Shown: positions 176 to 37,559 of the stretch, in pieces | Numbering within the stretch: position 1 is the stretch's first letter | How the letters are laid out: each line of letters opens with the position of its first letter | Assembly (NCBI RefSeq): GCF_001186125.1 | Contig: NW_014040557.1 | Span: 265,488-305,664 of the forward strand | Source of the DNA: Sphaeroforma arctica JP610 | Taxonomy: Eukaryota | Reading direction: 5' to 3' | Length of the DNA stretch: 40,177 bases | Program-made: the position numbers and the translations under genes | The notes under the pieces: generated by a model | Databases searched by the model: none | Told to the model about the DNA's origin: nothing | Seen by the model: only the letters and a program-made list of their open reading frames with translations

Positions 176-1543
176 TTAAAGCGCTCGAATAGGGGGTCCA
201 ACGCACCCTTCCATATAGGCGGAGACCAGGCAATAATGTTCAGCCCATATGTAGCCGTGGATAGGATAAATGTTTTGAATTTCACCAGTCGGTTGCGGGG
301 GTGTCGCCAGCTGAAGCCAAGAGGCGATACCCAGTGACAATGCTGCAACCAGGGATTCCATATGTCTAGCGAGGTTGATTCCTGGTACTCTGTGAGAGTG
401 AGAACCCCAGGTATTTGGAGTGTTTCGGTTCGGCATGTGTGGGCGCCAGTTTCAGAGGGAGGTAACGTGTGTTCCAAGGTGCCTCTGCAAGCGTCGGCGT
501 GATAAACTCACCATTTATACGGAGGGTTGGCGCCGCGTGTCGCAAGTCGGTAGATCGTACTCGGGGTTTAATGACACCCTGTTCGAGGCCAGATTTGCAT
601 CCCCACGCATCAATGTCATCTAAGAAGGGCTGGAGCGAAACTGATCGAGGGGCTTGGATCCGTGTGTCATCGACAAATAAATAAGAACGGAGGAGCTTGG
701 GCCAAAATTGTGCTAGCGTGACAGCTAAGAAATCCATGTAGATGATAAAGAGCTGGGGGCCGACGATTGAGCCTTGTAGGATGCCATTCGTTCTAAGGAA
801 TAGAGACGAGAGCGTGCCGCGGTATGTCACTCGGGTAGGGACCCTCTCAAACAGCGCGCGGAGGCAGTTGATCCAGTTTTCGGGCATTCCAGCGTGACGC
901 AGAAGTACCCATAGGCGTGGGAGAGCGACCTTGTCGTATGCCTTGGTTATGTCCAGACAGACGTCGTTCCACTCCTCTTCTGACTGTGTCTCAGATTCCA
1001 TGGCGGCAAGTGCTTGGGTATGATAGGAGTACCGTGATTTGAAGCCAGCTTGGGTAGCATGGGTAGCAGAGCCGGGGTGGCTCGTAATCAGATTAAGCTG
1101 ACTATTTGCGTAAGCGTGATGGGGCGGAAGTCGGCGGGGGAGGTGATATCTGCATCGGCTTTCTTTGGGTGGGCTGTTAGGAGGCTGCAGTTCAGGGCTG
1201 CGGGGAAGGTACCCGCTTTCAGCAGCACAGTGAATGCTTCGGCAAGGAGTCTAATCAGTGGGCTATTGGCGTCGGGGCGTCCCAATGTCCGACATTCGGT
1301 AGAGCGCTCCACTGCGGCCTTCAGGAGGAGGATGTGGGTCCCGTCGGGGGGGCGTATGGTGGAAGTGACATCAGGAGAGGGGTTTTTTTCAGGAGAGGGT
1401 TCGGTATCCGGTGGAACCACGTGCGGGTTTGTAGAGTTGAATAGGGCCTCAAAGTAGCCAACGAGGGTAGCGCCTGTGTCATCGGTACCCGGTATGCAGG
1501 GTTGGCGCGGAGACCGTCGCTGGTACGTAATATCTTTGAACAT
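176..1543 (-). pseudogene. LINE reverse transcriptase, frameshifted
   Basis: DFRPITL (ORF 1088-1543); CLDITKAYDKV, GILQGSIVGPQLFIIYMD, LFVDD and KYLG (ORF 366-1001) are non-LTR RT motifs split over several frames. Confidence 0.92.
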
Positions 1544-1810
1544 TTGAGCATTGCTTTGGGCGGTCAGACGTGGGCGGAACGAGTGGTTTGGCAGCCGCTG
1601 AACCCAAGGTCTGTTTAAGTCATAATAGAACCCTCCAAAGATTTGTGGGTTAGTGGCATAGCGCCAGATGCGGTCGAAGATTCGTAGCAGCCCTTCCGCT
1701 GGTCCATGTAAAGTGACATACGACCGTAGTAGGTTCTGATGCGCCCGGATTTCGGCTTGGAATAATCGCGCGCGGGATTTGTTGCGTAGGTGATACAGTC
1801 GATGGCGATA

Positions 1811-2554
1811 TCAGTTATATCCATGTGAGGGGAGGCGTTGGTCCGGAGGCGGCGGCATTGCTGGCATTTGTTGGGGCCGATGGATTTGATTCGTGGGAAG
1901 TATCTGGAGATCGAGTCCAAAGGTGTGGTCACCACAGATACCGTAGTCCGTCAGCTTATAAGTTTGGAGGGAGGCGGGGGTGGTAGGTCGATGATACGCA
2001 TGTTCAGTACCAGTTGAGCCGCCAGCATAGAGGCAGTCCAAGTGCCACGTCTTACGCAGAATAGTTTCAATCGTTTTCATACGTAGTCCGTGAATTGTAG
2101 ATGCGTGGCCATACTTCCGGGCTTTGAAGTTGATATCTCCCCACACGACATCTGGTTGGAAACCGCCAATCTCGGGGGGATTCATGTATCGCCTGACGTC
2201 TTCTTCAGTGAGCGATTTGAGTGGAAAGTAGAACATGGCCATATGAACGCCAAAGCACTTAAAGAACATCGCGTACGGTGAAGAGTGTACAAGTTGAAAA
2301 TTCGATGGGTGGTGTTTGGAAAAGATGCCAATACCACAGTGTGAAGGGTGTAAGATATTATGCTGTGTAGTGTGGTGTAGGATATGGTAGTGTGTGTTCG
2401 AGTGTATATGATTAAGAAATGTGGTGTTATGCCAGGTTTCAACCACACACATAACATCAACCTGACTTAAAATCAATATAACGTTCAAACACTTATCTGT
2501 ATGTGCTGCGTTGTCCATGTTGAGTCCTTGTGGGTTGAAGAGCGTCATCCTCAT
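1811..2554 (-). pseudogene. LINE apurinic-type endonuclease (APE/EEP) domain, N-terminus of ORF2
   Basis: MRMTLFNPQGL, DVMCVVETW, GIGIF, FYFP, VWGDIN, TEHAY and GDH follow the EEP motif order. The ATG at 2554 lies just after the stop codon of the upstream ORF (2560-2562). Confidence 0.88.
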
Positions 2555-2559
2555 TGGGC

Positions 2560-3496
2560 CTAACATTGTTCATCATCGGTCAATACTACTGGGCTCTCCT
2601 CTTTGACGATGTCAGCCATTTCTATATCATTGCCTGTTGTCGAAGAGTCCGTCGTGGAAAGCTGAGGCTGCGTATTGCTATCCATCGTGTCGGATGATTG
2701 TGTCGGGGAGACCGTTGGTATATGAAGTCGTCCGGGTTCCGGAACCATCCAGCGTGCCCCATGCTGATTCGCTTTCTTAGCATTCCTACGAATCACCTTG
2801 CACAAAGCATCATACTCACGCCGTTTCTGCTTAGCCTTTATCTTCAACTTAGCTGTTGCCCTTGGCTTGTCTGAGGCATCAGCCTTCTTCCCTACTGTAG
2901 CTGCCTTTACTGCAGGCACTCCTTTCTTCTTCTTAGCATCCTCATCCTCACTGTCACTACTTTCGCTGTTATCACTGCTGTCACTGTCCCTCGCGACTTC
3001 CTCCTCAGTCTCACTTTCGCTCTGTTCGTCCTCAGAAGGCACCTCAGTAAATGGATCCCGTTCTGGGAGCACTTTATTTGCTTCAGCTTTCGCCGCAACA
3101 TGCCGAGCACCATAGTAATAAATCTCACGAAGATGCTCAATAACCTTTTCAGGCTTGGATCCCCACCTTCCTATTGCCTTCGCAAAATCTGCCTGGGTTC
3201 CACTCACTTCAAATGGGTCCTTAAACGCTGGATACAATGCTGCAGCCGCGATGTACAGATCCTTCGTCTCAATAACAGTCTTGGATATAGCCCTCTAGTT
3301 CCGACTTCGTCTCCGGTGTAACCTCCTTCAAAAGAGCCATCGCTGGGCGGGACCCTCCTTTCTTCGCCTTGAGCTCATAAGCCTTGGTACCCCTGACATA
3401 ATCCCATCGATCCATAAGTGTCGTCATCGGCTCCCCTCTCACATATCTCCAGAGAGGTTGCCCAGTCCCAGCTGCACTATCCTTCTCGTAAACCAT
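2560..3496 (-). pseudogene. ORF1/gag-like region (two broken ORFs, 3269-3496 and 2560-3237) between the LTR and LINE ORF2
   Basis: The ATG at 3496 is 18 bp downstream of the LTR end. The product has an acidic Ser/Asp/Glu tract followed by a basic region, and it ends 5 bp before the APE ATG. No diagnostic domain was recognised. Confidence 0.5.
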
Positions 3497-3514
3497 TTTC
3501 CACTAACGTTTATT

Positions 3515-3949
3515 TGTAATCTTAGATCGACTCAAAACACAATGTAACGGTGAACTTGGATTTATTTCCTCGATTGTTGAATACAGAAGGATTTCATTGA
3601 GAATCCGGCCGCCAATCAAATCGTGTATCTTGTCAATTTCGAGCCTACAAGTCCATTCAACATATATCGTCATCTGCCAACCTCCAGCTCATATTACCCC
3701 GCACTTCGGTTCGCAAAACACCAATCATACACCAACCTCCTCTTCTTTCGAGCCTGCGCGGCCGTTCGCCAACAAACCGCACAATACAACTTAGAACTTT
3801 TCAAACTTATTAGTTTTCACACTTATCAGTTATCGCCCACACTTAGAAGTTCTCGCACTCTTATTAACGCCCAGGAACATTACCGAACAGTTCGGTACTT
3901 ACAACACCAACATTGTTTTAAATCGAAGGTAATCATGGTTGTCATTACA
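3515..3949 (-). repeat. LTR copy A (435 bp, TGTAAT...ATTACA termini)
   Basis: Reverse complement of 14787-15218 with 8 substitutions and one 3-bp indel. It has 6-bp terminal inverted repeats, and copy B follows a PPT and an integrase. Confidence 0.92.
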
Positions 3950-3952
3950 TTT

Positions 3953-4053
3953 GTGACTCAAAATATACTAAGTACCGAACTTTTTAATATTTTCTTATCG
4001 CCGGATTGTAGTGTAACTTGACTGTAAATCGTAGTAAAAAGCCATGTGTGAAT
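3953..4053 (+). repeat. Left terminal inverted repeat of the ISL2EU-like element
   Basis: The blocks GTGACTCAAAA, AAGTACC(G/A)AAC, TTTCTTATCG..CG.ATT, CTTGACTGTAAAT and TGTGAAT recur in the same order on the reverse complement of 12970-13073. Confidence 0.8.
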
Positions 4054-4462
4054 TTCGGATGTATGAACCAATACACCTGCGCTTTTAAGACCTATTACAC
4101 TAGTTATGAATTCTAATACTGTATACTATTCTAAAGATCATCCATGTTATCAATGTAACAGTTGGGTAGACGCGTCCGAATGGTATTTCTGTGACATTGG
4201 TGATACAAAGTGGCGTAGTCTATGGAGAGTCTTCAGTGACGATGCTAACACTACAACTAACATATCAATGTATACAAGGCATCGCTAGAACTGTTGTGTG
4301 AAGTACAACCCTAATCCTGGTTGTGGTGGCAAGTGTAGCTGTCCAAAGACCAAGCCTGTGAAGAGACAGCTAAAATTTGTTGAATCACCGTAGACGCCAT
4401 TGAACGCCATTGAATGCCATAGAAAAGATGCTCAGTCAAAAAGGTATCATTGTAGTACTATT

Positions 4463-5697
4463 ATGGGACTGAGTGGTTTGCTTCCGCTGATGAAGCTTCT
4501 GTTAGTGAAACTCCCTTGTTGCACATTCTCGGATGTCTAGGGATTGATGCGAGTATGCTTGCATATCAATATATGCGTGCGCATGCTCAGGATATTGTGT
4601 TAGATGGAAACTATCAGCCTTTTCTATTAGACATACGGGCTACACTACAACGACTACAGTCGTATGGTGTCGGTACACTAAATTTATTTATGGTATTCGA
4701 TGGTTTTCGTACGGATGATAAGTTAGTGAACGAACAGTGCCTAAAAGATAGAGGAAAATGATGTCACCCATCAAAGAATATTTGGCATCAAATAGAAAAC
4801 TGTATGGATTTGACAAGGTGAAGGCGTGCAAAAGTGCTGTAGCATATTTCAAAATAGAATGTGCCGAGCATATAGTGTTGTTGTGTCGAGATAAAGAGAT
4901 AGAATATATAGTCGCGCCTATGGAGGCGGAACAACAATTGTTAACACTACATCTTCAACGTAAAGTGTCCTATATACTAGCGTTTGATAGCGACTACATA
5001 GTGTTAGGGTGCGATTCTATAATTCTCGACACTAAATAGAGATCCGGAATTGTAAATATATTCTTTCGCCGAAGCTGTAAGGCACAGAATATTAGCAATG
5101 TAATAAGAAACTCATCCGAATGTGATGCAGAGAAAACTAAAATTATAGACATGCAGCTACAATTTTTAAAAGCAGGTTTAATCTACGGTTTTGATGCTTG
5201 CATATTACTAGGTGCACAACTATTGAGAAGTGATTATAAAAGTAACACGGTGTCGACTGTATCGTTTTGTTCTTGGTTGACACACGAGTCTTCATCAATT
5301 AAAACATCTCTCGCACTAAAATTGGAAGATACGAACTGGGCAACTGATAATTGGTATATACTTAATACTGAAGCAATCCATGCAAAACTGATGTATTTTT
5401 CCCAACCAGTTTATGTTTGGTGTAGACATGTTATTGAACTGGGTTACGTAACTCGTTATCTGCCTGTCAATCAATATGGAATACCACAATGGTCAATTAC
5501 AGGTTATACGATACAATCACTCTGTAGCATTCTTACACCAGCACGCAAACGGCTATTGAATTTTCTTGATAGTACAATCCATAATAATCGGTATAATAAC
5601 TTTACAAAATTATCACCGCAAGCACAAAGAGATTAGGCAATGGGTGCCTACAATTTACGATTTCCTCCTTAACCTGTTGGGAACAAGCGGTTTCCGC
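4463..5697 (+). pseudogene. XPG/FEN1/EXO1-family (PIN fold) 5'-3' nuclease, frameshifted
   Basis: ATG 4463 gives MGLSGLLPLMK; then LGIDAS, LFMVFDG, EYIVAPMEAEQQL, ILAFDSDYIVLGC and an H3TH-like ACILLG...SDY. This is the EXO1/FEN1 motif order (MGIxGL, DA, VFDG, APxEAE/D, DSD, GxDY). Confidence 0.85.
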
Positions 5698-6186
5698 NNN
5701 NNNNNNNNNNNNNNNNNNNNNNNNNNNNNNNNNNNNNNNNNNNNNNNNNNNNNNNNNNNNNNNNNNNNNNNNNNNNNNNNNNNNNNNNNNNNNNNNNNNN
5801 NNNNNNNNNNNNNNNNNNNNNNNNNNNNNNNNNNNNNNNNNNNNNNNNNNNNNNNNNNNNNNNNNNNNNNNNNNNNNNNNNNNNNNNNNNNNNNNNNNNN
5901 NNNNNNNNNNNNNNNNNNNNNNNNNNNNNNNNNNNNNNNNNNNNNNNNNNNNNNNNNNNNNNNNNNNNNNNNNNNNNNNNNNNNNNNNNNNNNNNNNNNN
6001 NNNNNNNNNNNNNNNNNNNNNNNNNNNNNNNNNNNNNNNNNNNNNNNNNNNNNNNNNNNNNNNNNNNNNNNNNNNNNNNNNNNNNNNNNNNNNNNNNNNN
6101 NNNNNNNNNNNNNNNNNNNNNNNNNNNNNNNNNNNNNNNNNNNNNNNNNNNNNNNNNNNNNNNNNNNNNNNNNNNNNNNNNNNNNT

Positions 6187-6816
6187 TTTGGTTCAAGTGC
6201 ATATACTCTTCGACAGGCCGTGGAACAGGATTATGAACCATTACAAGATGATGAAAATCGAAAGAATAAAAAACTGATGTATGCTAGGGCGGATGTTGCA
6301 AGATCATATAGACATGATAAGATGAGAGTGGTTTGTGTACTGGTTATAGATAAGGATCAAAATGCTACTAATGCCTGGTATATAGAATCCATAGAGGAGT
6401 GCAACTGTATGCTGCCGCTCTCAGACAAGAAGACTGTAACCACCGAAGAAGGAGAATGTGTGAGAGAGACTCTCAAAATTAATCCATGTCACAACCATAC
6501 TAATTGTGTCCATATCCGTGCATGCCTGGAACGCGTACGGGATTTAGGGGATTCCGGATTCACCTACGCGGCATGTAGCTGGAATAAGCGCCCCGCTGTA
6601 CGAAAGATGGACCCCAATCAACATGCGATTGTGGTGGCGAAAAAATTCGTCAACCAAAGTCGAGACTTCGCGTGTACTGTTACACGATCGAAGTTTATAC
6701 TTTTGAAGAGCTCCCATTTGGAATTGTTGAAGAAGGATATGAGTAGTGAAGAGCGAGAACTGTACGAAGCATACCGCGCCGCAAAACTCAGTACTTACAA
6801 AGAAGAGAAACACTAA
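6187..6816 (+). CDS. SWIM zinc-finger protein, C-terminal part (ISL2EU accessory-protein type); 5' end lies in the gap
   Basis: ARADVARSY...IEECNC-x(n)-CVHIRACL (CxC...CxH) followed by FTYAACSWNKRP (T-x3-C-x-W-x2/3-P). The frame is open to TAA at 6814-6816. Confidence 0.75.
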   Translation, partial: FGSSAYTLRQAVEQDYEPLQDDENRKNKKLMYARADVARSYRHDKMRVVCVLVIDKDQNATNAWYIESIEECNCMLPLSDKKTVTTEEGECVRETLKINPCHNHTNCVHIRACLERVRDLGDSGFTYAACSWNKRPAVRKMDPNQHAIVVAKKFVNQSRDFACTVTRSKFILLKSSHLELLKKDMSSEERELYEAYRAAKLSTYKEEKH

Positions 6817-6849
6817 AAATGGATCAAATACTCTGGCAACCAACAGAAT

Positions 6850-6897
6850 AACTGTATTTATAATTAAATAATTAAATATATGTAAATTTATTTTTGT
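6850..6897. terminator. AT-rich spacer between convergent stop codons; probable bidirectional polyadenylation region
   Basis: tatttataattaaataattaaata lies between the SWIM stop (6816, +) and the transposase stop (6898, -). Confidence 0.45.
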
Positions 6898-8030
6898 TCA
6901 TAATATATCCATGATGTCTTCCTCCGCAACGGAGGTTGCAAGATCGGCTGCCTCTATATACGCATCAATCAACTCTTCACTTGCTTTTGGTAAATCCATC
7001 CACCATTCTGTAATTGGTGGATCTAGATTAACATACCCGCGTGCACATTGTGCTTCATGATCGGCTAAATCTACCTCGGATAAAGTTTTGTTCTTACCAC
7101 TATGTCCCTTGTATACAATTACGAAGTTCTTCCATCGTTCTTTCGATGTTGGTGCGTTCTTTTGCTATGTCCCGGTCGTACTCAGCACGTTCATGGCTAA
7201 ATGCGAATTGATTCGCTTGTCGTTTTCGGGGAGTGCAGACTAATACTCCTAATCTCTCTAATTCGTACCTATCGGTGAGGCCTTTATCATACATGTATAA
7301 CATTTTGTACTGCCATTGCCCTTGATTATTTTTGGTCCGTATAATTCGTTATTGTCGATTCCGTTGTCAGATACCTGACCAGGATAACTTTTAGTAATAT
7401 CGCATGGGTAGGTTCCTCCATTGCTGAAAACGGTATATTTTAAAGTGGGATAATTTTTGTACTCACTATAGAATACACTTTGTGCATCTATATTGCATCC
7501 GGGGCGTTTCGCTCGCAACTCTACGGCGTCACCAATAACAATCCTCACTCCAGGTTGTAAATGTATTGCAGATCGCGTTCGTTCGGGCGTAAATTCTGCG
7601 GATTGCTCCGCAGTTGGAAAAGGTTGTCTAGCCTGAAATATTCTACTTATAGCTATACATAGCGTTATATATATACGTTTGACTGTATCATCTGTAAAAC
7701 CAAAGTACACTCCTAAAGCGCTGAGATTGTTGCGCGACTTTCTGAATGCTAATATGTACCTAACATACATATGCCATGTGGATAGTGCACTTTTGCGACC
7801 TCTCGGATCTCGAAAGCGGTCTTCTTCTTCGCTATCAACTTCTTCTGCCAATCCACCTTCGGCACTATTATTCTCATCTTCTAGTTATTCTTCTAGTAGT
7901 TTAGCGCGACATTCATTCCTCAATTTGTGGGACCAAAATACTATTTCATCCAACCTATTATTGTAGTTGAGCCAATCAAACTGCGACCTCAAAACGGTGA
8001 GATTAGGTTCACCTGTTTGCTCTAGTGGAC
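6898..8030 (-). pseudogene. ISL2EU-type transposase core (HTH + DDE_Tnp_4)
   Basis: QTGEPN...IVFW, GRKSALS...FGFTDDTVKRIY (HTH), IGDAVEL, QSVFYSEYKNYPTLKY, YPGQVSD, MYDKG, IAKERTNIER and C-terminal VNLDPPI, ending at TGA 6898-6900. It carries frameshifts and one in-frame stop. Confidence 0.88.
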
Positions 8031-8348
8031 AAATTTGTTAAAACAATACATCATACAGTGCTATATTTAATGTCGCATATTCGTGTGAATAATAAACAGT
8101 TTCATGTTTTAAATAGATGAGCTCAAAGAGCTTGTTCTTCTGAACATTTCATCCTAAGGATGTTCATACCTAGTAGAGGTATATTATGCCGTACGAGTGG
8201 CATGAAAATTTGGTCTATTACGGCGTACTGTATCGTGTATGTATGGTGATAGTGAAGTATGATGGCTTAAAATTGATGTATAGTGAGGTTAGATAGCTGA
8301 GCATGTTTCTTTTTCTTATGTGCGCTTAGAGATAACCTTTACGTGTCT

Positions 8349-9400
8349 CTACGACCATTCTTTCGATAGGCCAAAAACCCATTGACCAGTAGACATATCG
8401 ATGTTGGGTAGTAAAATTTGCCCCTGGACAGCATCCTTGTTATAATTAAAGGCACCTTGAAGGGTACCAACACTGAACAAGGGGTTAGTTGCCATAAGAT
8501 CTTTGATTTTGTCTCCGGGAACTCCCTTCGGCCATGAACCCCGCTTTTTTGCTATGAACATTACTTATAACCCGAATGTTAATAGCATATATAGTACCTT
8601 AAGAACTGAGAATCCAGAGTCCATGATAACCTTACGATCCGTACCTCGTATACCATCGGTTAGTCTCATTACGATACTTACAGTTGACAGTTGATCTGTA
8701 TACTTCAAGGCAGGTAGATACTCTGGCCTCACTTTCGCCTCGCACAAGTCAACATGGAATATTATATTTGCTGCACAACATACAATTGTCTTCCACTCGT
8801 TCTCGCACTGCTTAGGCTTACGAGGACAGTGAATTTGCGCATAGTCTTTAGGATTGTCCCACGCCATCATGGTTTCGTCGATGCACACTTTTTCAGAACA
8901 GAAAAAGTGTTTGTCCATATTGCTATTCCATTCATGTACTAAGCTACGCATAAAATAACCCTGGTCTGCTCTCTCTTCCGGTGTAATGGGTGCTGCACGC
9001 AAGCATAAATTTTTTTGTATGTCTATGTATCTTGTTTTGTTCATGTACAAACCAAAATAGGGAAGGGGGTCTAGTGGGTCACGAGATGAGATCCAGAAGC
9101 CGTTTACACCCCTACTGTAATATTTAGCCATGATCAATCTCAATGCTAACCATACAAAGTACTCTCCAACATCTATCTCACGCTTACCTGCCTTTCTTAA
9201 GGCAACATTAGTCGCAGGCACAAGCTCACTACGCACCCATGTCATTGGTAGAAGGTACTTAAATAAATCTAAATATGATGCGTCGTCTTTGATATGTGGC
9301 AACTTTGCGCTAAAGTTTCCAGCACCGTGTCTTGTTCTAAAAGATCATCTCCAGCCTTATAATTGTCGTCTGAAGGTCTAGTGTCTATATCTACCTCCCT
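8349..9400 (-). mobile_element. piggyBac-family transposase fragment (DDE_Tnp_1_7), nested
   Basis: LFKYLLP...ATN, FW...FGLYMNKTRY, CIDETM, PRKPK, IMDSGFS, KKRGSWPKGVPG. The third catalytic Asp and the termini were not identified. Confidence 0.85.
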
Positions 9401-10266
9401 TACTTCTATATCATTCTGTATTTCATTAATATTAACACCCACTTCATGAACAAAGCTATCAACTATTGTGTGTCTTAACTATTAGAGATATATGTGTGGT
9501 AGTTAGAAACTCACGCTCAGTGTTTGGTGATGCCTCTACTCGTGTACCATCAGGAGCAGAGCATTCTGTAAGATTCGGTCTCTCAAGGCGATATCAACGC
9601 CTTAGAATAAATAAACGGGTAGGTAAATTCTAAGTTCGTGAAAATATCAAAGTAAATAAATGAAATACGACATTTAGTAAAGTTAGGCTTNNNNNNNNNN
9701 NNNNNNNNNNNNNNNNNNNNNNNNNNNNNNNNNNNNNNNNNNNNNNNNNNNNNNNNNNNNNNNNNNNNNNNNNNNNNNNNNNNNNNNNNNNNNNNNNNNN
9801 NNNNNNNNNNNNNNNNNNNNNNNNNNNNNNNNNNNNNNNNNNNNNNNNNNNNNNNNNNNNNNNNNNNNNNNNNNNNNNNNNNNNNNNNNNNNNNNNNNNN
9901 NNNNNNNNNNNNNNNNNNNNNNNNNNNNNNNNNNNNNNNNNNNNNNNNNNNNNNNNNNNNNNNNNNNNNNNNNNNNNNNNNNNNNNNNNNNNNNNNNNNN
10001 NNNNNNNNNNNNNNNNNNNNNNNNNNNNNNNNNNNNNNNNNNNNNNNNNNNNNNNNNNNNNNNNNNNNNNNNNNNNNNNNNNNNNNNNNNNNNNNNNNNN
10101 NNNNNNNNNNNNNNNNNNNNNNNNNNNNNNNNNNNNNNNNNNNNNNNNNNNNNNNNNNNNNNNNNNNNGTTTCTCAGGCGGAGAAGTTAAGCGTTCTCGG
10201 TTACCCTGCGAGTTTTGGGCTTAGGTCCAGTAGGTCCATGGTGGTCGACTGGACGTTTCCTACGCT

Positions 10267-11630
10267 TCAGTGTCTTAAGCATATATGAAGGGTGAGCATT
10301 AAAGCTCGGGATAAATGCTGTAGACGGATAAGTTTTAACTTCCGTTCCTTCAGACGATGGAAACATGCTATCTTTTTCAGCTTGTGACTTATGCAGGCGT
10401 TTACGCCATTTCGATTAAAGACTTTTAAATAGTCTTGATTATCAAAAGCATTTGAAGTCAACTCAGCCATTGTACCGTCTATAAAGCGTGTACGAAAGTA
10501 TGTATAGCCTCCCTTATCCGTTCTCCATATAATGTCTTTAAATTCAGAACGATCAAGAGGGGCATTAGAATCATGTCTTCTTGCGAGTGTAATCTTTGTA
10601 GTCGGAATACGACTTGTGCCTATATTAAGCGCACTAGAACCATTGGGGTTATTTACCTCGTACGTTCCACTTTTAGTGTCTGCTACAGAGATTATATATA
10701 GACCTACTCATTTAGATGTTAATACAGTAGCATCGGAATTACGTTGACAGATGTTAACTCTGTCACCAACCTGATACTCTGCTGTCTTCTTGGCAGTGTT
10801 CGAACGCTTGTGCCTTTTTAATAAGGCTATATTGCGAATTTCTTGCAAGCAAGGATATACAACGTTATTAATTCGTTGTACCTTCTCCAACCATGGTAAC
10901 TCATGATGATCCGGTTTGTCCTTGTTAAAGGGGATTTGTATCACTATATCTGCCACGAAAATAGTGAGCGGGTGTAGTTCCTGTAACCGGATCAGCACAC
11001 TCGTTCATTTGTGTTTGTACCCACTTAAGTCATGCGTTAATGCAGTATGCAAAAAGTACTTAAGTCTTCCATGGCGCGTTTCATTCGCGCCTTGCGTTTG
11101 CGGCTTATATGGCACACCTCTCTTTTGGCATATGCCTGATACGAGTACTAGCGATTCCATTACGTCATCGCAGAACTCACTATCGTTATCAGTGCACACA
11201 ATACCCGGCCATCCGTGGTCAGCAAAGACTTGTCAATATAATTCTGCCACGGTCTGCGTGATTGCTTAGGCTTAGTGTATGGAGTGAAATTACGTTTTAT
11301 CAATGTACACGTGTTTGCGATGTGCATCACGACAAACAAGATCAATACGTGTGTCAAGAAAGCCTTCAGGAACTGCAGCACGCATGAAATAGCACTAATT
11401 AAGAATATAGCAATCACGTTTCGTACCTCCAGCACAAGGAATCAACTCTTGGCCACACACTGTTCCGAAGAATCATCCATCTTTTTGGTCGGATGTATTG
11501 AGATAAGCAAAAACTGATGTCGGGTGGGAAAACTTGACTCTACAAAGCCCTACTGTGCATATTGAATAGTCTTTACTTGTACGCGACATCTCTACGAGTG
11601 TAATGAGCTATCGTATGTATTTGTACGACC
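10267..11630 (-). mobile_element. Gypsy integrase fragment, paralogous to the integrase at 33944-35230
   Basis: IHTIAH, HGWPGIVCTDND, RGVPYKPQTQGANETR (identical to ORF 34535-34792), NVVYPCL, YQVGD and GYTYFRTRFIDGT. Segment 11280-11570 appears unrelated. Confidence 0.85.
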
Positions 11631-11649
11631 AATGTACGCCCTATTATAT

Positions 11650-12918
11650 GACCTAACATATTGACCTCAAACTAACATTTTGATAATTTCAAGGAGAAAA
11701 CCATTATTTTGAATTTTTGCGTGTGCACATTTTCTAAGTAACCGATTTTGCGGCGGGTGATAGAGACTTCAATATCCAATGAATCCAGCGTTTCGTTGGC
11801 GCGCTGCAACTGTCATAGTCCAACGAACAATCTGGCGTCTCTAACTCTACACGAAACCAGCTGTTGCAAAAGATATTGTATGTTTTTAATTAGTACTGTA
11901 TCGTGTACGAAAATACTGTATACAGTTTTTCCACAAGACAAAATAATGGCTTAGCAAGTGCTGCTAACCATAGTGCACCCCTTTCTTCCACCGTTACAGT
12001 TATCGCCTCACTGCTAACAGGTGTCTCCACAGGTGAAATTAAATGTGTGTGTGTGTTTCTTTTGTGTGATGCTGTGTAAGTCTTAACCCGTTTTCCTGTA
12101 TGTGGTTTGTTAGCGAAACTGTAATAGGGTTGAGTATTTTTCTCTCACGTGGACATGTACCTGGAGTGGGTTCCTTACTGCCTGTCTCATGTACTGAATT
12201 ATCATCGCCTTCTATACCTAAAGCATATGGACGAAACCGAGGGTACGCATCAGTAAGTATGCGATCTCTGATCTTTGAACTAGAACTAAATTGTTCAGCG
12301 CTGAAGTGATGCTTGTGAATTCGGATGGTTTATCGCTTGCCGGTCGCTGCTCGTAAACGTACTCTTTCCTTCAGTCTTGTACGAGCAGTCAGACTGCGCA
12401 CTTTGGTGTGGCAGAAACACAGCATCTCGTTCACTAATACCACTTCCACAATCTTCCTCATCGTTACTGCATATACACTTTACCATTTTTTTCTTCATAT
12501 TTTTTAATTGTCACTGATTGCAATTGGAAGTTGTACTTCCACGTAATTGCCGACATGGTAGTGCGGGTTGTGGACACATGTTGACATGCAATTGATTTCC
12601 GCCATATGTGAAATGCAATGCATGCAACGGAAAATGTTTTGCGTTCACTGGTGCGTTGTTTGTTTTCCCTGCTACATCTCTCTTCCTCAATAAATGATCT
12701 ACAACGTCATCGCTTACGCCTGGTATAAGTATCTTTAACCAGCTATGTGCTCTTCTGGTTTCTGAATCTACATTGTGATCTGATGCACGCCCCTTAGGTA
12801 ATGAAATTTCTCTGCTTGTTTCGTCCATACAGTGGGCCACACCGCACATGCACTTACGCGTATACTTAACCTTCTTGGCCTCTGGCCCCGCCTGAATACG
12901 ACTCACTCTATCTGACAT
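11650..12918 (-). pseudogene. THAP-domain N-terminal half of the ISL2EU-like transposase
   Basis: RKCMCGVAHC...SLP...W...VNAKHF is a THAP C2CH pattern with the third Cys replaced. It starts just inside the right TIR and is followed by a broken low-complexity and coiled-coil-like linker (QLQRANETLDSLDIEVSITRRKI). Confidence 0.65.
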
Positions 12919-12969
12919 TGTACACTCGCCACGTTGTATGTGTGCACAGGTGGTCAAATTACACTATAT

Positions 12970-13073
12970 ATTCACATGTATGTATTTAAAAACACAATTT
13001 ACAGTCAAGAAATCGGCCGATAAGAAACAAATGTGTTCAAATTGCGGTTTGGTACTTTATAGTTTTGAGTCAC
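12970..13073 (-). repeat. Right terminal inverted repeat of the ISL2EU-like element
   Basis: TTTTGAGTCAC at 13063-13073, AATCGGCCGATAAGAAA at 13011-13027 and ATTTACAGTCAAG at 12997-13009 pair with 3953-4029. Confidence 0.8.
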
Positions 13074-13299
13074 CTGTGTACTAGTTTTTATATACAGTGA
13101 GCTAATGTAGTACATATTTACATACATACGTAAAATATTTGTCTTCCGAGTATGTAAATTCAAAATAAATATGTAAAGGCTGAAACAAAATATTTAGTAT
13201 GCCTGATTTTAAATAACCACGGCCAAAGAACAAAATTGCGGATGGACTTAGTCGTATGCCGTGGTGGTTTGATCCTATTATGGTGCATGTGTCGGTAGA

Positions 13300-14752
13300 G
13301 GGTGTTAAGTTCGCTGCATGTGCAAAAATGGGTCTCCAGAGATTGATGAAGGTATGGATTTGTCATTTGATAAAGTCTGCAAGAGTGTGGAAGACATGAG
13401 GGTCCGGCTGGCAGTGGTTAAAGAGAAGCGGTAGATAGGATATGGGAGTTCCTGAAAGTTAAGTATGGAGAGGAAGTGTTGCGTTTGCAGGTTGTGAAGG
13501 TTTTGAAGAGTTGTGTTGCGTGTCAACAAGTTGAGGGGCTTCGTGGTACTACAGGGTTGTTAATGCAGCCTGAGAGGCCGAAAGGGGTTGCAGTGTGTAT
13601 AGGCATGGATCATTTGACCTTGCCAAGGACAGTTCACGGTTCCGAAGGTATAGTAGTGGCCATAGATCATTTTTCGAGGATGGTGTGATGTCGGCCATAC
13701 ACGTTGGAAGAGAAGAATACTAAAGGGGTATTAGAGTTTGTTCAACAACAAGTGTTGCCTTGGGGTACACCTAAGAAGGTAGTGATGTATGAGGGTGGTC
13801 CGTTCGCCCTAGCAGATATGAAAAGTTTCTGGGCAGAGAGAGGTGCAGAATGCCATTACATATAAGTAAATAGGCATCAGGGCAATGGTAGGGCAGCGAG
13901 GGTCTTTCTTACGATTGTGGATTGGCTTGCTAAGAGCTTGCCGGTTGGGGAGGAAACTTTATGGCCAGCATGTATATATTCAGTTATGTTGGCGTACAAT
14001 GCGACAGTGAATTCTGCCACGGGTATCAGCCCATACTATCATATTACGGGCCGGCATTATACGGGGCAGGTTGATAGAGTAATTCAGGCGAAGTTGTTAG
14101 AGGTGATAGGTTCTGAGCTTTCGAGTGAAGCTGCTGTGCGGGAAAGATCGGTGGCCATTAGAGGTGAAGTAGCGAAGGAGGCGCAGGCAAAGGCGGCAGA
14201 CAAGAATAGAAAAGAGGCACCAGATTGGCAGCCGGGGCAGTTGGTTTGGTATACTGGTAGGTCCAAGGATAATAAGCTGGCGAAAACCTATTTAGTGATA
14301 GGCACGATTGTTATGAGGGAACACTTACAACGGATGTACAAGGTCAGAATTAATGGGAAGGTTAAGTCAATACATGTGGATTAGCTTAAGGTGAGGTTAG
14401 AGGATCCGAAGCATGAGGCCAGTATTAGAATACGTAGGAGGAAAGTTTGTTTGATCTGGCTCTACAATTATACTGGTGAAGGGGCAGCTAGTGTTACAGA
14501 ACTTGATGAAATGGTGGCAGTAATGCGATCAGCAAAGATAGGGAGGGCTTAATTCAGCTTCTGGTATATATGTTGATACGATAGTCGATGCGGCGAAGCG
14601 AGGTGAGAGTAGGGGCGTGGTAGAAGATACTTTGGATTTGGCTATGAAGCATCACTTCAATAAGAACAGGTTGAACAAGTTGCATATGTTCTTCCAGGTT
14701 ACGAGGGATCCGATTTTGCGGAAGAAGCAGTTGAGTAAATGGTTGAATGAAT
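13300..14752 (+). pseudogene. Ty3/Gypsy integrase (3' part of pol), decayed
   Basis: KSCVACQQ, IGMDHL, VAIDHFSR, GTPKKVV, HQGNGRA, LAYNATVNSATGISPY, WQPGQLVW, IHVD. It has internal stops, and the second D and the E appear mutated. Confidence 0.9.
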
Positions 14753-14779
14753 GAACTCAACACTAGTGTCTTGTTCATT

Positions 14780-14786
14780 GGGGAGA
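14780..14786 (+). other. Polypurine tract
   Basis: GGGGAGA immediately precedes the LTR TG at 14787. Confidence 0.7.
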
Positions 14787-15218
14787 TGTAATGACAACCA
14801 TGATTACCTCCGATTTAAAACAATATTGGTGTTATAAGTACCGAACTGTTCGGTAATGTTCCTGGTTAATATGAGTGCGAGAACTTCTAAGTGTAGGCGA
14901 TAACTGATAAGTGTGAAAACTAATAAGTTTGAAAAGTTCTAAGTTGTATTGTGCGGTTTGTTGGCGAACGGCCGCGCAGGCTCGAAAGAAGAGGAGGCTG
15001 GTGTATGATTGGTGCTTTGCGAACCGAAGTGCGGGGTAATATGAGCTGGAGGTTGGCAGATGACGATATATGTTGAATGGACTTGTAGGCTCGAAATTGA
15101 CAAGATACACGATTTGATTGGCGGCCGGATTCTCAATGAAATCCTTCTGTATTCAACAATCGAGGAAATAAATCTAAGTTCACCGTTACATTGTGTTTTG
15201 AGTCGATCTAAGATTACA
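14787..15218 (+). repeat. LTR copy B (3' LTR, 432 bp)
   Basis: TGTAAT...ATTACA, downstream of the integrase and PPT; near-identical to the reverse complement of 3515-3949. Confidence 0.93.
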
Positions 15219-16175
15219 TATGTACTATTTTATTTGTACTTTGAGCTAATACATATGTACATATAGAATANNNNNNNNNNNNNNNNNNNNNNNNNNNNNN
15301 NNNNNNNNNNNNNNNNNNNNNNNNNNNNNNNNNNNNNNNNNNNNNNNNNNNNNNNNNNNNNNNNNNNNNNNNNNNNNNNNNNNNNNNNNNNNNNNNNNNN
15401 NNNNNNNNNNNNNNNNNNNNNNNNNNNNNNNNNNNNNNNNNNNNNNNNNNNNNNNNNNNNNNNNNNNNNNNNNNNNNNNNNNNNNNNNNNNNNNNNNNNN
15501 NNNNNNNNNNNNNNNNNNNNNNNNNNNNNNNNNNNNNNNNNNNNNNNNNNNNNNNNNNNNNNNNNNNNNNNNNNNNNNNNNNNNNNNNNNNNNNNNNNNN
15601 NNNNNNNNNNNNNNNNNNNNNNNNNNNNNNNNNNNNNNNNNNNNNNNNNNNNNNNNNNNNNNNNNNNNNNNNNNNNNNNNNNNNNNNNNNNNNNNNNNNN
15701 NNNNNNNNNNNNNNNNNNNNNNNNNNNNNNNNNNNNNNNNNNNNNNNNNNNNNNNNNNNNNNNNNNNNNNNNNNNNNNNNNNNNNNNNNNNNNNNNNNNN
15801 NNNNNNNNNNNNNNNNNNNNNNNNNNNNNNNNNNNNNNNNNNNNNNNNNNNNNNNNNNNNNNNNNNNNNNNNNNNNNNNNNNNNNNNNNNNNNNNNNNNN
15901 NNNNNNNNNNNNNNNNNNNNNNNNNNNNNNNNNNNNNNNNNNNNNNNNNNNNNNNNNNNNNNNNNNNNNNNNNNNNNNNNNNNNNNNNNNNNNNNNNNNN
16001 NNNNNNNNNNNNNNNNNNNNNNNNNNNNNNNNNNNNNNNNNNNNNNNNNNNNNNNNNNNNNNNNNNNNNNNNNNNNNNNNNNNNNNNNNNNNNNNNNNNN
16101 NNNNNNNNNNNNNNNNNNNNNNNNNNNNNNNNNNNNNNNNNNNNNNNNNNNNNNNNNNNNNNNNNNNNNNNNNNN

Positions 16176-20910: not shown

Positions 20911-23900
20911 ATGGCCAGCGAGAAATCAGCCGGGTTTGGCACGACCCCTTCTCACAGCCGAGTGGGCATGAGTTCAACGGATCGCATCGCTAGACTTCGC
21001 CCGGGGGTGTTGGAGAAGCCCTTTCCGTTACAGAAAAAAATGCCATCGCATTTGAGTACTGAGCGAATACAGAAGAAGACGCCATCGTATTTGCGTACTA
21101 AGAGTCTGCTTGCTACAATACAAAAGAAGACGCCATCGCATTTTAGTGCTGATGGAATACAGAAGACGACAGCATCGCATTTTAGTACTGAGAGTCAGCA
21201 TGGTACAATAAAGAAGACGACAGCATCGCATTTTAGTACTGAGAGTCAGCATGGTACAATAAAGAAGACGACGCCATCGCATTTGAGTACTGAGAGTCAG
21301 CATGGTCTAATACAGAAGAAGACGCCATCGCATTTAAGTGCCCTGAGCCAGCAGGCTACAATACAGAAGAAGACGCCATCGCATTTGAGTACTGAGAGTC
21401 GGTATGGTACAATACAGAAGAAGACGCCAACGCATTTAAATACTCTGAGCCATCAGGCTGCAATACAGAAGAAAACGCCATCGCATTTGAGTACTGGGAG
21501 TCAGCATGCTACAATACAGATGGAGAAGTCATCTACTGAGAAAATACGGAAGAAGACGCCATCGCATTTGAGTACTGGGAGTCAGCATGCTACAATACAG
21601 ATGAAGAAGTCATCTACTGAGAAAATACGGAAGAAGACGCCATCGCATTTAAGTACCCTGAGCCAGCAGGCTACAATACAGAAGAAGACGCCATCGCATT
21701 TGAGTACTGAGAGTCAGCATGCTACAATACAGATGGATAGGTCATCTACTGAGAAAATACGGAAGAAGACGACATCGCATTTGAGTACTCGGAGTCAACA
21801 TGCTACAATACAGATGGAGAAGTCATCTACTGAGAAAATACGGAAGAAGACGCCATCGCATTTAAGTACCCTGAACCAGCAGGCTACAATACAGAAGAAG
21901 ACGCCATCGCATTTGAGTACTGAGAGTCGGTATGGTACAATACATAAGAAGACGCCATCGTATTTAAGTACTCTGAGCCAGCAGGCTACAATACAGAAGG
22001 TGATGCCATCGCATGTAAGTACCCAGCGCCAGCAGGCTACAGAACTGATTCCCACCTTGTCACAGCCGTTGAAGAAGCGATACGTCAAGGTCACAGGCAC
22101 GGACAAGCAGAGAGAGACTACCGACACACACTACCAAACACCACTGAAGCCATTAACCGGATCCACGGCAGCAGTGAACACCACAACGAATGCTCCCATC
22201 ATGAGTACTTCTCTGCCACCCCCAACAAAGCCAACACGCACAGCCATTGAAGGCAAGCAGCCTGGAGATGTAAACGAGGCATACGACCGACAGACGCGAG
22301 TAGCAGAACGCGTTGCAGTACCGACGGAGGCTATAGATGTGGATGCCCTGGAAGAGGATGGGGAGAAAGGGCCGCATGTAGGTGGACCTACGCTGTGTAA
22401 GAGGGCTGGCCACACAAAAACAAAAGCAGAGCGTGCTGTGGCGAGGACGATCACAATTGACCTGACAGGCGAGGACAAGACAAGATCGAGCTCTGCGTCT
22501 CGCATTAGAGATTACGGTAGTACAATAGCTAGCTGTGCGGTTGGGGCCGGTGTGTTACCTCAGGTGTCTGTTGCACCTGCTAGGAATGTAGCCGGGAATA
22601 CCAAACGCGTGATCGGATTTGGTGTGGCCCTGAAGAGGCCCTTTGTCGAGGGTGGGCATGTCGGTGCAGATGGGAAGCAAGTGACCGGGATGGGTAAGCG
22701 TATAGAGAAGCCGGCCACATACATGGGTAGCCCTACGCGCAAGGATCCCCAGAGAGTTGTGCCGAAGGATGAGAAAAAGGGTTTGCCTGTAGGTCTCCCA
22801 GACAACGGCGAGCGCAATCAGCAATCCGCACAGACCAATCGCAGCACACCACGCGACAAAGCAACCGCTGCAAATTCAATTGCAAAGCGAGTGCACGTGG
22901 AGCATCAGGGGGCGTCCAAGATCGATCTGTTGGCGGTTCCCTGGGTGCAAAAGGTCCTTGCTGAGCCCACATACCTACCTGGGGACGGGGACGGGGACGA
23001 GACTTATCTAACACACGCGCCATCGATTTACGACAAGGTCGAATCGCACGCGGGTCGGTGGCTGGTGTGGCTGCCGGAGAGGGTGTATAAGGATTCGCCT
23101 GAAGAGAACTGGACATTCCGGCCCAAATGGGTCTTTCACCCGAGCGCCTATCCGAGACGCGAGCCCTTTGGAGACCTTGGCGTGCCGGATTATACACTCC
23201 TGCCAAGCAGGGTGCGGGGACTGAGACGCACACTACCTGCCACGAGTGAAGTATATTGGTCGATACAAGAGCGCGTACAAGGTGAAAGTGCAGATGAGTG
23301 TGACGGGTGTCATCCGGGTGCGCCGTACTTGACCCATGGCGTGCACTTTGAGCATACGCAAGGCAAGGATGGGTTCTTCTCGGCGCCGCTGATAAAGAAC
23401 CAGCACGTGATCCCCCGACGCCAGAGACACGGCTACGCACACCGAGACAACTTTCTACTGCCAGATAGAGTGGAGGAGCTTGCGAGCCAATGCACCGGTG
23501 CAGCCGATCGACAGTTAAACACACAGACACTCCGCACAAAAGGTACTGGAGTGAATGCAGATATGTATTCAAGCATACAGACAAATCGTGCAGAAAGTCC
23601 TGGAATGAGCCGCGATACGACCCGAGAGCCCCGTGCGACAGGTGCAGGTCGAACTGTAGACGCCAGTAAGGAGGGCGGGGAAACTGTGCATTCCATACGC
23701 AAGAGTGGGAAGTCAGAAAAGAGACTAATATCAAGGTGGATTGGTAGTCGACGAAAGAAACGTAAAGCCAGCACCATAAAGCGGGACTTGAATGAGTATG
23801 ACTCCGGACCAGAGAATGCCTTGAGCGATCCCAGTGACCTTACAGATACTGATGAATCCAGTTACAGTAGCGAGGGGTGGTTGCCTAGGCTTTATGGTGG

Positions 23901-24220
23901 CGACGTGGATAGCAACGACGCGCCACGTAGCCTGCACAGAAAATGTATCAGTGCCCACTCGGCCACACAGGGAAGGGCAGTCTTTCGGAAGGAATCTGTG
24001 CGCAAAGCAAAACGTCTGTGCACATGGGAGCACTCTGTGGGGAAGGTCAAAGATAGTAACCTAGATTCTTTGGACAAATCCGACACCTCTGATAAATCCG
24101 CCACATCTGAGAAGACAGAGACATCTGAAAAAACAGACACATCGGATATGGCCATCGAGTTTGATCAGTTACTACCCATACAGTCGCTTATCACGGACAC
24201 CCCTGCAGGAGAGATGCCAG
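20911..24220 (+). CDS. Large exon of an uncharacterised repeat-rich, mostly disordered protein
   Basis: Uninterrupted 3.3-kb ORF with codon-multiple internal repeats, ending at a CAG|GTACGT donor (24221). It is preceded by catactacatag, so 20911 may be an exon start rather than the initiator. Confidence 0.75.
21028..22040 (+). repeat. Coding minisatellite: 18 units of (Q/R)KKTPSHLSTxSQxATI, 51-bp core with 39-bp and 81-bp variants
   Basis: The aagaagacgccatcgcattt core recurs, and all unit lengths preserve the frame. Confidence 0.95.
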
Positions 24221-24537
24221 GTACGTTTTATATTATCATGTATGTATATATGTATTATTAGTATACGTATGTCGTACATTCATAGGCAAACTGTGGGGTT
24301 TGTCGTATGTGTAATGTAGTATAAAAACATTGCTCTCGGTGCGTCCAATGGGCGTTCAACATGTCTAGTCTCCGCGATCCCAGTCCCAACTTGGGCGTAT
24401 ACTACTTCTACATGCAGAATTCTTTCTTGGATATACCGTGTGTATGGCCCGTGGAAGCGAGCACCCAGGGCAGGAATGTGCAAGTAACTAGTACTTTCAA
24501 AGCGACTCTTAACCTCACTCATGGTTCATCTCCACAG
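24221..24537 (+). other. Predicted 317-bp GT-AG intron (phase 1)
   Basis: Donor gtacgt, branch-like cttaac near 24508 and acceptor tccacag. Splicing joins G+AC (Asp) in frame with ORF 24591-26408. Confidence 0.65.
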
Positions 24538-26395: not shown

Positions 26396-27331
26396 TGTCC
26401 CCGGTTAACGGGAAAACGTTTACGGGTAAAACGGGTTTACCGGTTTACGGGGTAGGGGTAACGTTTAAACCCTTACGGAACCAACTTAACGGTANNNNNN
26501 NNNNNNNNNNNNNNNNNNNNNNNNNNNNNNNNNNNNNNNNNNNNNNNNNNNNNNNNNNNNNNNNNNNNNNNNNNNNNNNNNNNNNNNNNNNNNNNNNNNN
26601 NNNNNNNNNNNNNNNNNNNNNNNNNNNNNNNNNNNNNNNNNNNNNNNNNNNNNNNNNNNNNNNNNNNNNNNNNNNNNNNNNNNNNNNNNNNNNNNNNNNN
26701 NNNNNNNNNNNNNNNNNNNNNNNNNNNNNNNNNNNNNNNNNNNNNNNNNNNNNNNNNNNNNNNNNNNNNNNNNNNNNNNNNNNNNNNNNNNNNNNNNNNN
26801 NNNNNNNNNNNNNNNNNNNNNNNNNNNNNNNNNNNNNNNNNNNNNNNNNNNNNNNNNNNNNNNNNNNNNNNNNNNNNNNNNNNNNNNNNNNNNNNNNNNN
26901 NNNNNNNNNNNNNNNNNNNNNNNNNNNNNNNNNNNNNNNNNNNNNNNNNNNNNNNNNNNNNNNNNNNNNNNNNNNNNNNNNNNNNNNNNNNNNNNNNNNN
27001 NNNNNNNNNNNNNNNNNNNNNNNNNNNNNNNNNNNNNNNNNNNNNNNNNNNNNNNNNNNNNNNNNNNNNNNNNNNNNNNNNNNNNNNNNNNNNNNNNNNN
27101 NNNNNNNNNNNNNNNNNNNNNNNNNNNNNNNNNNNNNNNNNNNNNNNNNNNNNNNNNNNNNNNNNNNNNNNNNNNNNNNNNNNNNNNNNNNNNNNNNNNN
27201 NNNNNNNNNNNNNNNNNNNNNNNNNNNNNNNNNNNNNNNNNNNNNNNNNNNNNNNNNNNNNNNNNNNNNNNNNNNNNNNNNNNNNNNNNNNNNNNNNNNN
27301 NNNNNNNNNNNNNNNNNNNNNNNNNNNNNNN

Positions 27332-33744: not shown

Positions 33745-33943
33745 AGTAGCTTTTAGTACTACGGACGTACGTGAAGGTACGATCTAGTTCGTAAAGCGAA
33801 AACCAAAGTAAAACGGTTTCGGTCATAGCTTATCGAGTAAGTATGTGCCTATATGTACGAGTTCAAGGCTCATGTTGTACTCTATTAAGCAGATAAGAAA
33901 GTATAGTAACATAGGAAGTAGGTGGCAAATAGGGAATTTCATA

Positions 33944-35230: not shown

Positions 35231-35378
35231 TAACGCTGGCTGGATGAACCATAGTCCCGTTAGATAGGGNNNNNNNNNNNNNNNNNNNNGTCTTGAGCTT
35301 TTGTTCAAACTCCTTAGACTCCTCTAGTTTAGCTAAGAACTCGGTTAAGGGTTTCCATTTAGTGGTACCTGCAGGACC

Positions 35379-35777: not shown

Positions 35778-35822
35778 GGTTGCTAATAACTCTTTAACTG
35801 TATTCTGGTAGTCAGGGACAGG

Positions 35823-36176: not shown

Positions 36177-36194
36177 TGGGACGCCATCCACAGG

Positions 36195-37066: not shown

Positions 37067-37076
37067 ATCCTTTACT

Positions 37077-37502: not shown

Positions 37503-37559
37503 ATGGAACTGTCAGTTCTTAACTTGGACGTCCGGTATGTCCTTGCAATTATCTTTGTG

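What the first reader, a model, noticed from the sequence alone, without database searches (positions are those of the whole stretch)
3953..13073. ISL2EU-like transposon whose accessory gene is an EXO1/FEN1-type nuclease plus SWIM instead of a lambda-type exonuclease
Seen in sequence: paired ~100-bp imperfect inverted repeats enclose a minus-strand THAP...HTH-DDE_Tnp_4 transposase ending in NLDPPI. A convergent plus-strand region has all the main XPG/EXO1 motifs (4463-5240) and, after a 488-N gap, a SWIM finger plus T-x3-C-x-W-x-P motif that stops at 6816 with no YqaJ domain after it. Established knowledge: ISL2EU elements encode a THAP-DDE transposase and a second protein with SWIM and a YqaJ/lambda-like 5'-3' exonuclease. 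Inference: a structurally unrelated 5'-3' nuclease (PIN fold) has displaced YqaJ, which suggests that 5' end resection or flap processing is the function these elements need. This would define a new PHIS subgroup.
Basis: partly seen in the sequence, partly recalled or inferred. Interest (0 to 1): 0.88.

Follow-up and report, generated by a model that had tools for sequence, protein, structure and literature searches.

The report
Dead transposon carrying EXO1-like nuclease gene
This is a dead, fragmented copy of a cut-and-paste jumping gene, likely from a single-celled relative of animals, whose ends enclose an EXO1-like DNA-trimming gene where described relatives carry an unrelated nuclease, which suggests that this kind of jump needs a second enzyme to trim DNA ends.

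Summary
Mostly confirmed. Imperfect terminal inverted repeats (3952/3-~4060, ~12960-13074) score far above chance. They enclose a minus-strand DDE_Tnp_4 transposase with all three catalytic motifs and a convergent plus-strand XPG-family nuclease (XPG_I E=9e-9; only EXO1 structures match). After a 488-N gap comes a SWIM-like module ending about 46 bp from the transposase stop, which leaves no room for YqaJ. The only three relatives of this module are Sphaeroforma arctica predicted proteins, none with YqaJ. Corrections: both genes are dead; THAP and SWIM are motif readings that Pfam misses; a piggyBac-like and a Gypsy fragment fill about 3.8 kb of the span; there is no AT target duplication. That nuclease and SWIM form one gene is inferred across the gap, and I found no second copy with its surroundings. 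'Displaced YqaJ' is not shown: XPG lies before SWIM, and the direction of change is untested. Ten literature searches found no description of the pairing, but unchecked notes of this scan report it repeatedly in algae and diatoms. This copy adds a likely holozoan example. New variant of a known kind.

The parts
3952..4060 (+). Left terminal inverted repeat (imperfect; tip at 3952 or 3953; inner limit approximate)
4106..4393 (+). Small cysteine-rich reading frame with one stop, between TIR and nuclease; unexplained, may be chance
   Evidence: sequence; no Pfam or NCBIfam match when read through; first half has a sub-threshold zinc-ribbon hit, E=0.002
4463..5697 (+). Broken XPG/EXO1-family nuclease gene: N region, I region, H2TH-like motif, start of linker; 2 frameshifts, 4 stops; runs into the gap
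   Evidence: XPG_I E=9e-9, XPG_N E=0.03-0.06; EXO1 structures E=0.002; rad2 E=0.0013; motifs
5698..6185 (.). Assembly gap, 488 N; continuity of the gene across it is inferred
6186..6851 (+). SWIM-like module (C-x-C, 32 residues, C-x-H; then T-x3-C-x-W-x3-P) and short tail; likely true stop at 6849-6851 after a frameshift; no YqaJ
   Evidence: Atlas lead 0.85 to a cluster with SWIM on 20% of members
6898..8045 (-). Broken DDE_Tnp_4 transposase core with all three acidic motifs; 2 stops, 2 frameshifts
8250..9480 (-). Nested piggyBac-like transposase remnant (ends not mapped)
   Evidence: DDE_Tnp_1_7 E=9e-31
10169..11440 (-). Nested Gypsy-type integrase fragment, related to the retroelement at 33.9-38 kb
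   Evidence: 59% nucleotide identity over 914 columns to 33998-34882, E=7e-44; rve E=0.15, sub-threshold
12000..12918 (-). Likely 5' part of the transposase gene with two degenerate THAP-like motif sets (12918-12600; 12486-12230, frameshifted)
   Evidence: read from the sequence; not detected by Pfam or PDB; the two sets are not significantly alike (286 of 2000 shuffles reach the score)
12960..13074 (-). Right terminal inverted repeat (starts GG read inward; inner limit approximate)
3515..3949 (-). Flanking LTR, not part of the element; ends 2-3 bp from the left TIR and obscures the original left flank
   Evidence: 97% inverted copy of 14787-15218, which has TG...CA ends and a purine tract before it

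Best explanation
The stretch is a dead, TIR-bounded DNA transposon of the ISL2EU side of the PHIS superfamily whose second gene likely encoded one protein joining an EXO1-like 5' nuclease to a SWIM-like module, and this nuclease would have trimmed or cut the non-transferred 5' strand at the element's ends during cut-and-paste. Shown: the TIRs, the DDE transposase, the XPG-family nuclease, the tail-to-tail layout, the absence of YqaJ after SWIM, the decay, and two nested insertions (element about 5.3 kb without them). Inferred: one ORF of about 790 residues across the gap; the transposase binds the TIRs through THAP-like fingers and nicks the 3' ends; the SWIM module docks the nuclease on the transposase-DNA complex; the nuclease does the job that YqaJ is presumed to do in animal ISL2EU. 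I put membership of the nuclease in the element at about 0.75 and the 5'-end-processing role, given membership, at about 0.65.
For: The TIR pair is the only strong match for either arm in the window, and both genes lie inside it. The gene ends lie about 46 bp apart across an AT-rich spacer. Nuclease and SWIM pieces are on the same strand, and both are in coding frames at the gap edges. Four acidic positions align with human EXO1 E150, D152 (E here), D171 and D173; motifs for the other three are present (numbering recalled). Decay is similar in both genes: 4 stops in about 620 nuclease-SWIM codons, 2 in about 390 transposase codons. Neutral decay to 38% identity would give about 21 stops, with 0 of 200 runs at 4 or fewer, so the gene diverged from EXO1 while still functional. 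Three related proteins at 83, 51 and 46% identity show a multi-copy family; the two that reach the end of the module stop within about 20 residues of it. Described ISL2EU elements pair this transposase type with an exonuclease gene (PMC4482050, PMC4122938, PMC9179366, passages).
Against: The join across the gap is unseen. No second copy with its surroundings was found: 0 of 618, 0 of 1322 and 0 of 461 candidates passed, and the locus scans gave only three chance hits. The three relatives cover the SWIM part only. SWIM and THAP are not detected by Pfam. There is no target-site duplication, and the span holds two other nested elements, so a third could hide in the gap. No experiment on the second gene of any ISL2EU element turned up in what I read.
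Confidence: 0.5

Rival explanations
1. The nuclease belongs to the element but acts after the jump: it would resect or clean the broken donor site, or the flaps and gaps at the new insertion, to steer host repair, and is not needed for excision.
For: The only solved matches are EXO1, a resection and repair enzyme (established knowledge). Spy elements mostly have one ORF and PIF/Harbinger use a Myb-like partner (PMC4122938, passage), so this transposase family can work without a second nuclease.
Against: No direct evidence. Unchecked earlier notes report nuclease-transposase fusions in algal and diatom relatives, which would fit a role inside the transposition complex.
Confidence: 0.25
2. Composite: the XPG part belongs to another inserted element (for example an AcademX-like transposon or an endogenised giant-virus gene), the gap hides a boundary, and the SWIM piece is a separate, YqaJ-less second gene.
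For: The locus is a nest of insertions. The gap was never closed. AcademX elements encode a nuclease (PMC10045372, passage; that it is XPG is recalled).
Against: No second transposase, no viral gene and no convincing inner inverted repeat around 4100-5700. The start codon lies about 400 bp inside the left TIR, where the second gene should start. Without XPG the second gene would have no 5' half. No viral-contig relative of the nuclease pieces (these scans have low sensitivity).
Confidence: 0.15
3. One-off capture of a processed host EXO1 copy by this single element, with no role in transposition.
For: The best structural-database match is EXO1. XPG-bearing copies could not be counted.
Against: Only 19 of 58 residues are identical to human EXO1 in the best-conserved stretch (counted), yet few stops are present; neutral decay cannot give both. 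Caveats: frames were chosen by motif, frameshifts were not modelled, and the host's own EXO1 was not available. The region after the nuclease core matches nothing in EXO1.
Confidence: 0.1

Closest known systems
ISL2EU group, PHIS superfamily (PMC4482050, PMC4122938, PMC9179366; passages read)
   Same: DDE_Tnp_4 transposase whose nearest Atlas clusters carry HTH_Tnp_4; THAP-like N-terminus by motif; TIRs within the 6-259 bp range; two genes, the second a nuclease; right TIR starts GG.
   Different: The second gene has an XPG/EXO1-family domain N-terminal to a SWIM-like module and no YqaJ; no AT target duplication visible; left TIR starts TG or GT; likely a non-animal host.
AcademX (Academ superfamily)
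   Same: A DNA transposon with its own accessory nuclease (PMC10045372, passage); that this nuclease is XPG is recalled, as the primary paper was not held.
   Different: The transposase here is DDE_Tnp_4, not Academ type; no 3-4 bp duplication seen; SWIM-like module present.
Human exonuclease 1 (XPG/Rad2 family; PDB 3qea, 5uzv, 7mxx)
   Same: I-region acidic residues align; N-region and H2TH-like motifs present.
   Different: 33% identity over 58 residues; no match beyond that stretch; enclosed in TIRs; broken.
PIF/Harbinger
   Same: Same transposase Pfam family, two genes.
   Different: Its partner is a Myb/SANT protein and its duplication is TWA; neither is seen here.

Membership tests
PHIS superfamily | DDE transposase of the DDE_Tnp_4 / IS5-ISL2 type | tested here: met
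   Pfam E=2.3e-6, above cut-off; Atlas 0.95; IS5-family model E=0.0036; three acidic motifs
PHIS superfamily | Terminal inverted repeats | tested here: met
   score 67 against background maximum 39; 0 of 2000 shuffles
ISL2EU | Transposase with THAP and HTH | tested here: inconclusive
   THAP-like motifs by eye only; no Pfam or PDB hit; HTH_Tnp_4 only in Atlas neighbour clusters
ISL2EU | Second ORF with YqaJ exonuclease | tested here: not met
   no YqaJ hit; about 46 bp between gene ends; three relatives lack it; the 488-N gap upstream of SWIM is unread
ISL2EU | AT target-site duplication at A|AT|T | tested here: inconclusive
   flanks read ATT on the left and TGT on the right, no duplication; an LTR ends 2-3 bp from the left tip, so the flank may not be original
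ISL2EU | TIRs usually start with GG | tested here: inconclusive
   right end GG, left end TG
ISL2EU | Placement inside the ISL2EU clade on a transposase tree | not testable with these tools
   no homologous sequences could be retrieved
XPG/Rad2 (FEN1/EXO1/GEN1) nucleases | N and I regions with seven acidic residues, followed by H2TH | tested here: met
   XPG_I above cut-off, XPG_N below; four acidic positions aligned to EXO1, three by motif
XPG/Rad2 (FEN1/EXO1/GEN1) nucleases | PIN-type fold | tested here: inconclusive
   single-sequence model pLDDT 33.5, unusable
SWIM zinc finger | C-x-C ... C-x-H after a beta-rich stretch | tested here: inconclusive
   motif present with a 32-residue spacer and kept in P0004; deleted in P0003; no Pfam hit; Atlas lead 0.85; model pLDDT 34.4
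PIF/Harbinger | Myb/SANT second ORF and TWA duplication | tested here: not met
AcademX | Academ-type transposase beside the nuclease | tested here: not met
   only DDE_Tnp_4 and DDE_Tnp_1_7 transposases found in the span

The most novel reading that the evidence does not exclude
An undescribed PHIS group, spread from green algae and diatoms to unicellular relatives of animals, needs a self-encoded 5' nuclease for cut-and-paste, and the SWIM module is a constant dock onto which two unrelated nuclease folds (XPG or YqaJ) have been attached. Its presence in a holozoan would make the XPG form ancient, possibly older than the animal YqaJ form.
Probability: 0.4. Interest if true: 0.78.

Novelty: new variant of a known kind. 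Interest (0 to 1): 0.55.

Why it matters
Nobody has tested, in the papers I could read, why ISL2EU transposons carry an exonuclease gene. Two unrelated 5' nuclease folds on the same zinc-finger module would point to 5'-end processing as the required job and give a direct test with a nuclease-dead mutant. A copy in a unicellular relative of animals also bears on which form came first. This copy is dead and gapped, so its value is as a taxonomic data point, not as experimental material.

Tried and rejected
No whole genome is held and no sequencing runs were available, so the gap was not closed and copies were not counted. Word-indexed protein searches with SWIM, nuclease and transposase pieces against longer proteins only: 0 of 618, 0 of 1322, 0 of 461 candidates; shorter and similar-length proteins were not searched there. 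Viral-contig scans: none confirmed among 3, 65, 13, 15 and 109 pattern hits. Metagenome scan: 1 of 267, a bacterial radical-SAM-like gene by its motifs, rejected. Prokaryote-genome scans: 0 of 191 and 2 of 146, both chance matches to short words. Plasmid tblastn: no match. Exact look-up of 10 window ORFs: 0 of 10. Two structure models were unusable, so no fold search was run. The N-region piece against PDB gave only unrelated weak hits. Dinucleotide profiles do not separate the nuclease from the transposase region and show no CpG loss. The 439-bp inverted repeat at 3512-3950 / 14786-15221 was considered as the element's ends and rejected: it is an LTR pair. No alternative inverted repeat encloses the transposase without the nuclease.
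Full report
Setting. The window is eukaryotic and packed with mobile elements: a LINE-like element at 366-2569, LTR elements, simple repeats and six N gaps. No whole genome is held. The only relatives of any part of the finding are three predicted proteins of Sphaeroforma arctica, so the host is likely an ichthyosporean, a unicellular relative of animals. This is an inference from those hits.

Ends. The stretches at 3952/3-~4060 and ~12960-13074 are imperfect inverted repeats: 81 of 133 global columns are identical, and the local score is 67 against a maximum of 39 in 1416 background tiles and 0 of 2000 shuffles. Scanning with the right arm finds only the left arm (69 against 38). The right arm starts GG and the left TG. 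The flanks read ATT and TGT, so there is no AT duplication. An LTR (3515-3949, a 97% inverted copy of 14787-15218 with TG...CA ends) ends 2-3 bp outside the left tip and may have replaced the original flank.

Transposase. On the minus strand, 7261-7884 matches DDE_Tnp_4 at E=2.3e-6 and 7103-7309 at E=0.011. The nearest Atlas clusters (0.94-0.95) are eukaryotic DDE_Tnp_4 proteins with HTH_Tnp_4. The acidic motifs lie at 7536, 7291 and 7150, NLDPP at 7029 and the stop at 6898-6900; the core has two stops and two frameshifts. Two degenerate THAP-like motif sets lie at 12918-12600 and 12486-12230. Pfam sees neither, PDB does not see the first, and they are not significantly alike, so THAP stays a reading by eye. 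Between them and the core lie a piggyBac-like remnant (E=9e-31) and a Gypsy integrase fragment that is 59% identical to 33998-34882. Without these the element is about 5.3 kb; the insertion ends were not mapped.

Nuclease. From the ATG at 4463 the plus strand carries XPG-family motifs over three frames. XPG_I scores E=9e-9, above cut-off; XPG_N scores 0.03-0.06, below. In PDB all 5 matches at E<=1 are exonuclease 1 (best E=0.002; 19 of 58 residues identical), with E150, D152 (E here), D171 and D173 aligned. The other three acidic sites are assigned by recalled motif. The frame runs on, with stops at 5037, 5634 and 5670, into the gap at 5698.

SWIM part. After the gap an open frame (6187-6813) has a beta-rich-looking stretch, C-x-C at 6400, C-x-H at 6505 and T-x3-C-x-W-x3-P near 6574. 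Pfam does not call it SWIM; the Atlas gives a weak lead (0.85, SWIM on 20% of members). HMMER over 1.84 billion representatives returned 3 proteins, at 83, 46 and 51% identity. The W-x3-P motif is kept in two of the three and C-x-C...C-x-H in one; the 83% copy has lost the C-x-H stretch. The tail of P0005 matches another frame of the window just past 6813 (2 of 2000 shuffles), so the gene likely ended at 6851, about 46 bp from the transposase stop. There is no room for YqaJ, and none of the three relatives has it. Their genomic surroundings could not be read.

Does the nuclease belong to the element? For: it lies inside the only TIR pair, starts about 400 bp from the left end, points the same way as the SWIM piece and is decayed about as much as the transposase (4 stops in about 620 codons against 2 in about 390). 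In a simulation 4 stops fit 2-8% neutral change, whereas neutral decay to 38% identity gives about 21 stops (0 of 200 runs at 4 or fewer), so it diverged from EXO1 while functional. That test ignores frameshifts, uses frames chosen by motif and lacks the host's own EXO1. Against: the join across the gap is unseen, the locus already holds two nested elements, and every search for a second copy with surroundings failed (the three loci returned were chance hits). I put membership at about 0.75.

Mechanism (inferred). The transposase would bind the TIRs and nick the 3' ends. The second protein, docked through its SWIM-like module, would cut or trim the 5' non-transferred strand, which is the chemistry of XPG-family enzymes. 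A role in repairing the donor site or the insertion gaps is the main rival. Two structure models were unusable (pLDDT 33.5 and 34.4).

Comparison with print. ISL2EU is defined by a THAP-HTH-DDE transposase, a YqaJ second gene, AT duplications and GG ends (PMC4482050, passages; PMC4122938, one passage; PMC9179366, passages). SWIM occurs 0 times in those three main texts; supplements were not read and may bear on this. The YqaJ test fails, so I do not file this as an ISL2EU member; it works like one. PMC10045372 (passages) notes that AcademX carries a nuclease, so an accessory nuclease in a DNA transposon has precedent; that it is XPG is recalled, as the primary paper was not held. Searches for the pairing found nothing relevant: searches gave 0 papers; one search gave 1, one search gave 5 and one search gave 35 (20 listed), none relevant by title and abstract start; supplied the papers read. 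Repbase and subscription journals were not searchable.

Earlier notes of this scan. Sixteen findings in at least 4 genomes hold the same key words (8 shown), describing XPG-SWIM genes beside DDE_Tnp_4 transposases in Ostreococcus, other algae and diatoms, some fused. I could not test them, and sequence look-ups found no look-alike of this copy. They agree with my reading but are not independent support. None turned up for ichthyosporeans.

Verdict. New variant of a known kind; interest 0.55.

Noticed in passing
window 33900-37950 (minus): Decayed LTR-type retroelement with protease, RT and RNase H, then a Dam-like adenine methyltransferase domain (Pfam Dam E=2.2e-6, just under cut-off) followed by a DDE-integrase-like region (rve E=0.06). 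A Dam-like domain is typical of DIRS elements, which use a tyrosine recombinase (recalled); here it seems paired with an integrase, across a 20-N gap.
   Followed up: partly
window 3515-3949 and 14787-15218: Two 97% identical LTRs in inverted orientation flank the element; the right one closes a 5'-truncated Gypsy integrase region (about 13210-14780), the left one has no clear target duplication.
   Followed up: partly
window 4106-4393 (plus): Small cysteine-rich frame with one stop between the left TIR and the nuclease start; no family match when read through; might be a third gene or an upstream exon.
   Followed up: partly
window 12918-12230 (minus): Two THAP-like motif sets in tandem, each lacking one expected cysteine; possibly a double-THAP N-terminus.
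   Followed up: partly
window 20911-24261 and 24513-26408 (plus): Long open frames (1116 and 631 codons) with internal 51/81-bp and 78-bp repeats and no Pfam match.
   Followed up: no
window 13072-13124 and 15216-15263: The AT-rich DNA just outside the right TIR resembles that just outside the right LTR (74% over 53 columns, E=0.035); may be one small repeat hit by both, or chance.
   Followed up: no
window 366-3502 (minus): LINE-like element with endonuclease (E=0.0007) and reverse transcriptase (E=1.8e-14) pieces and an upstream frame of unknown kind next to the left LTR.
   Followed up: no
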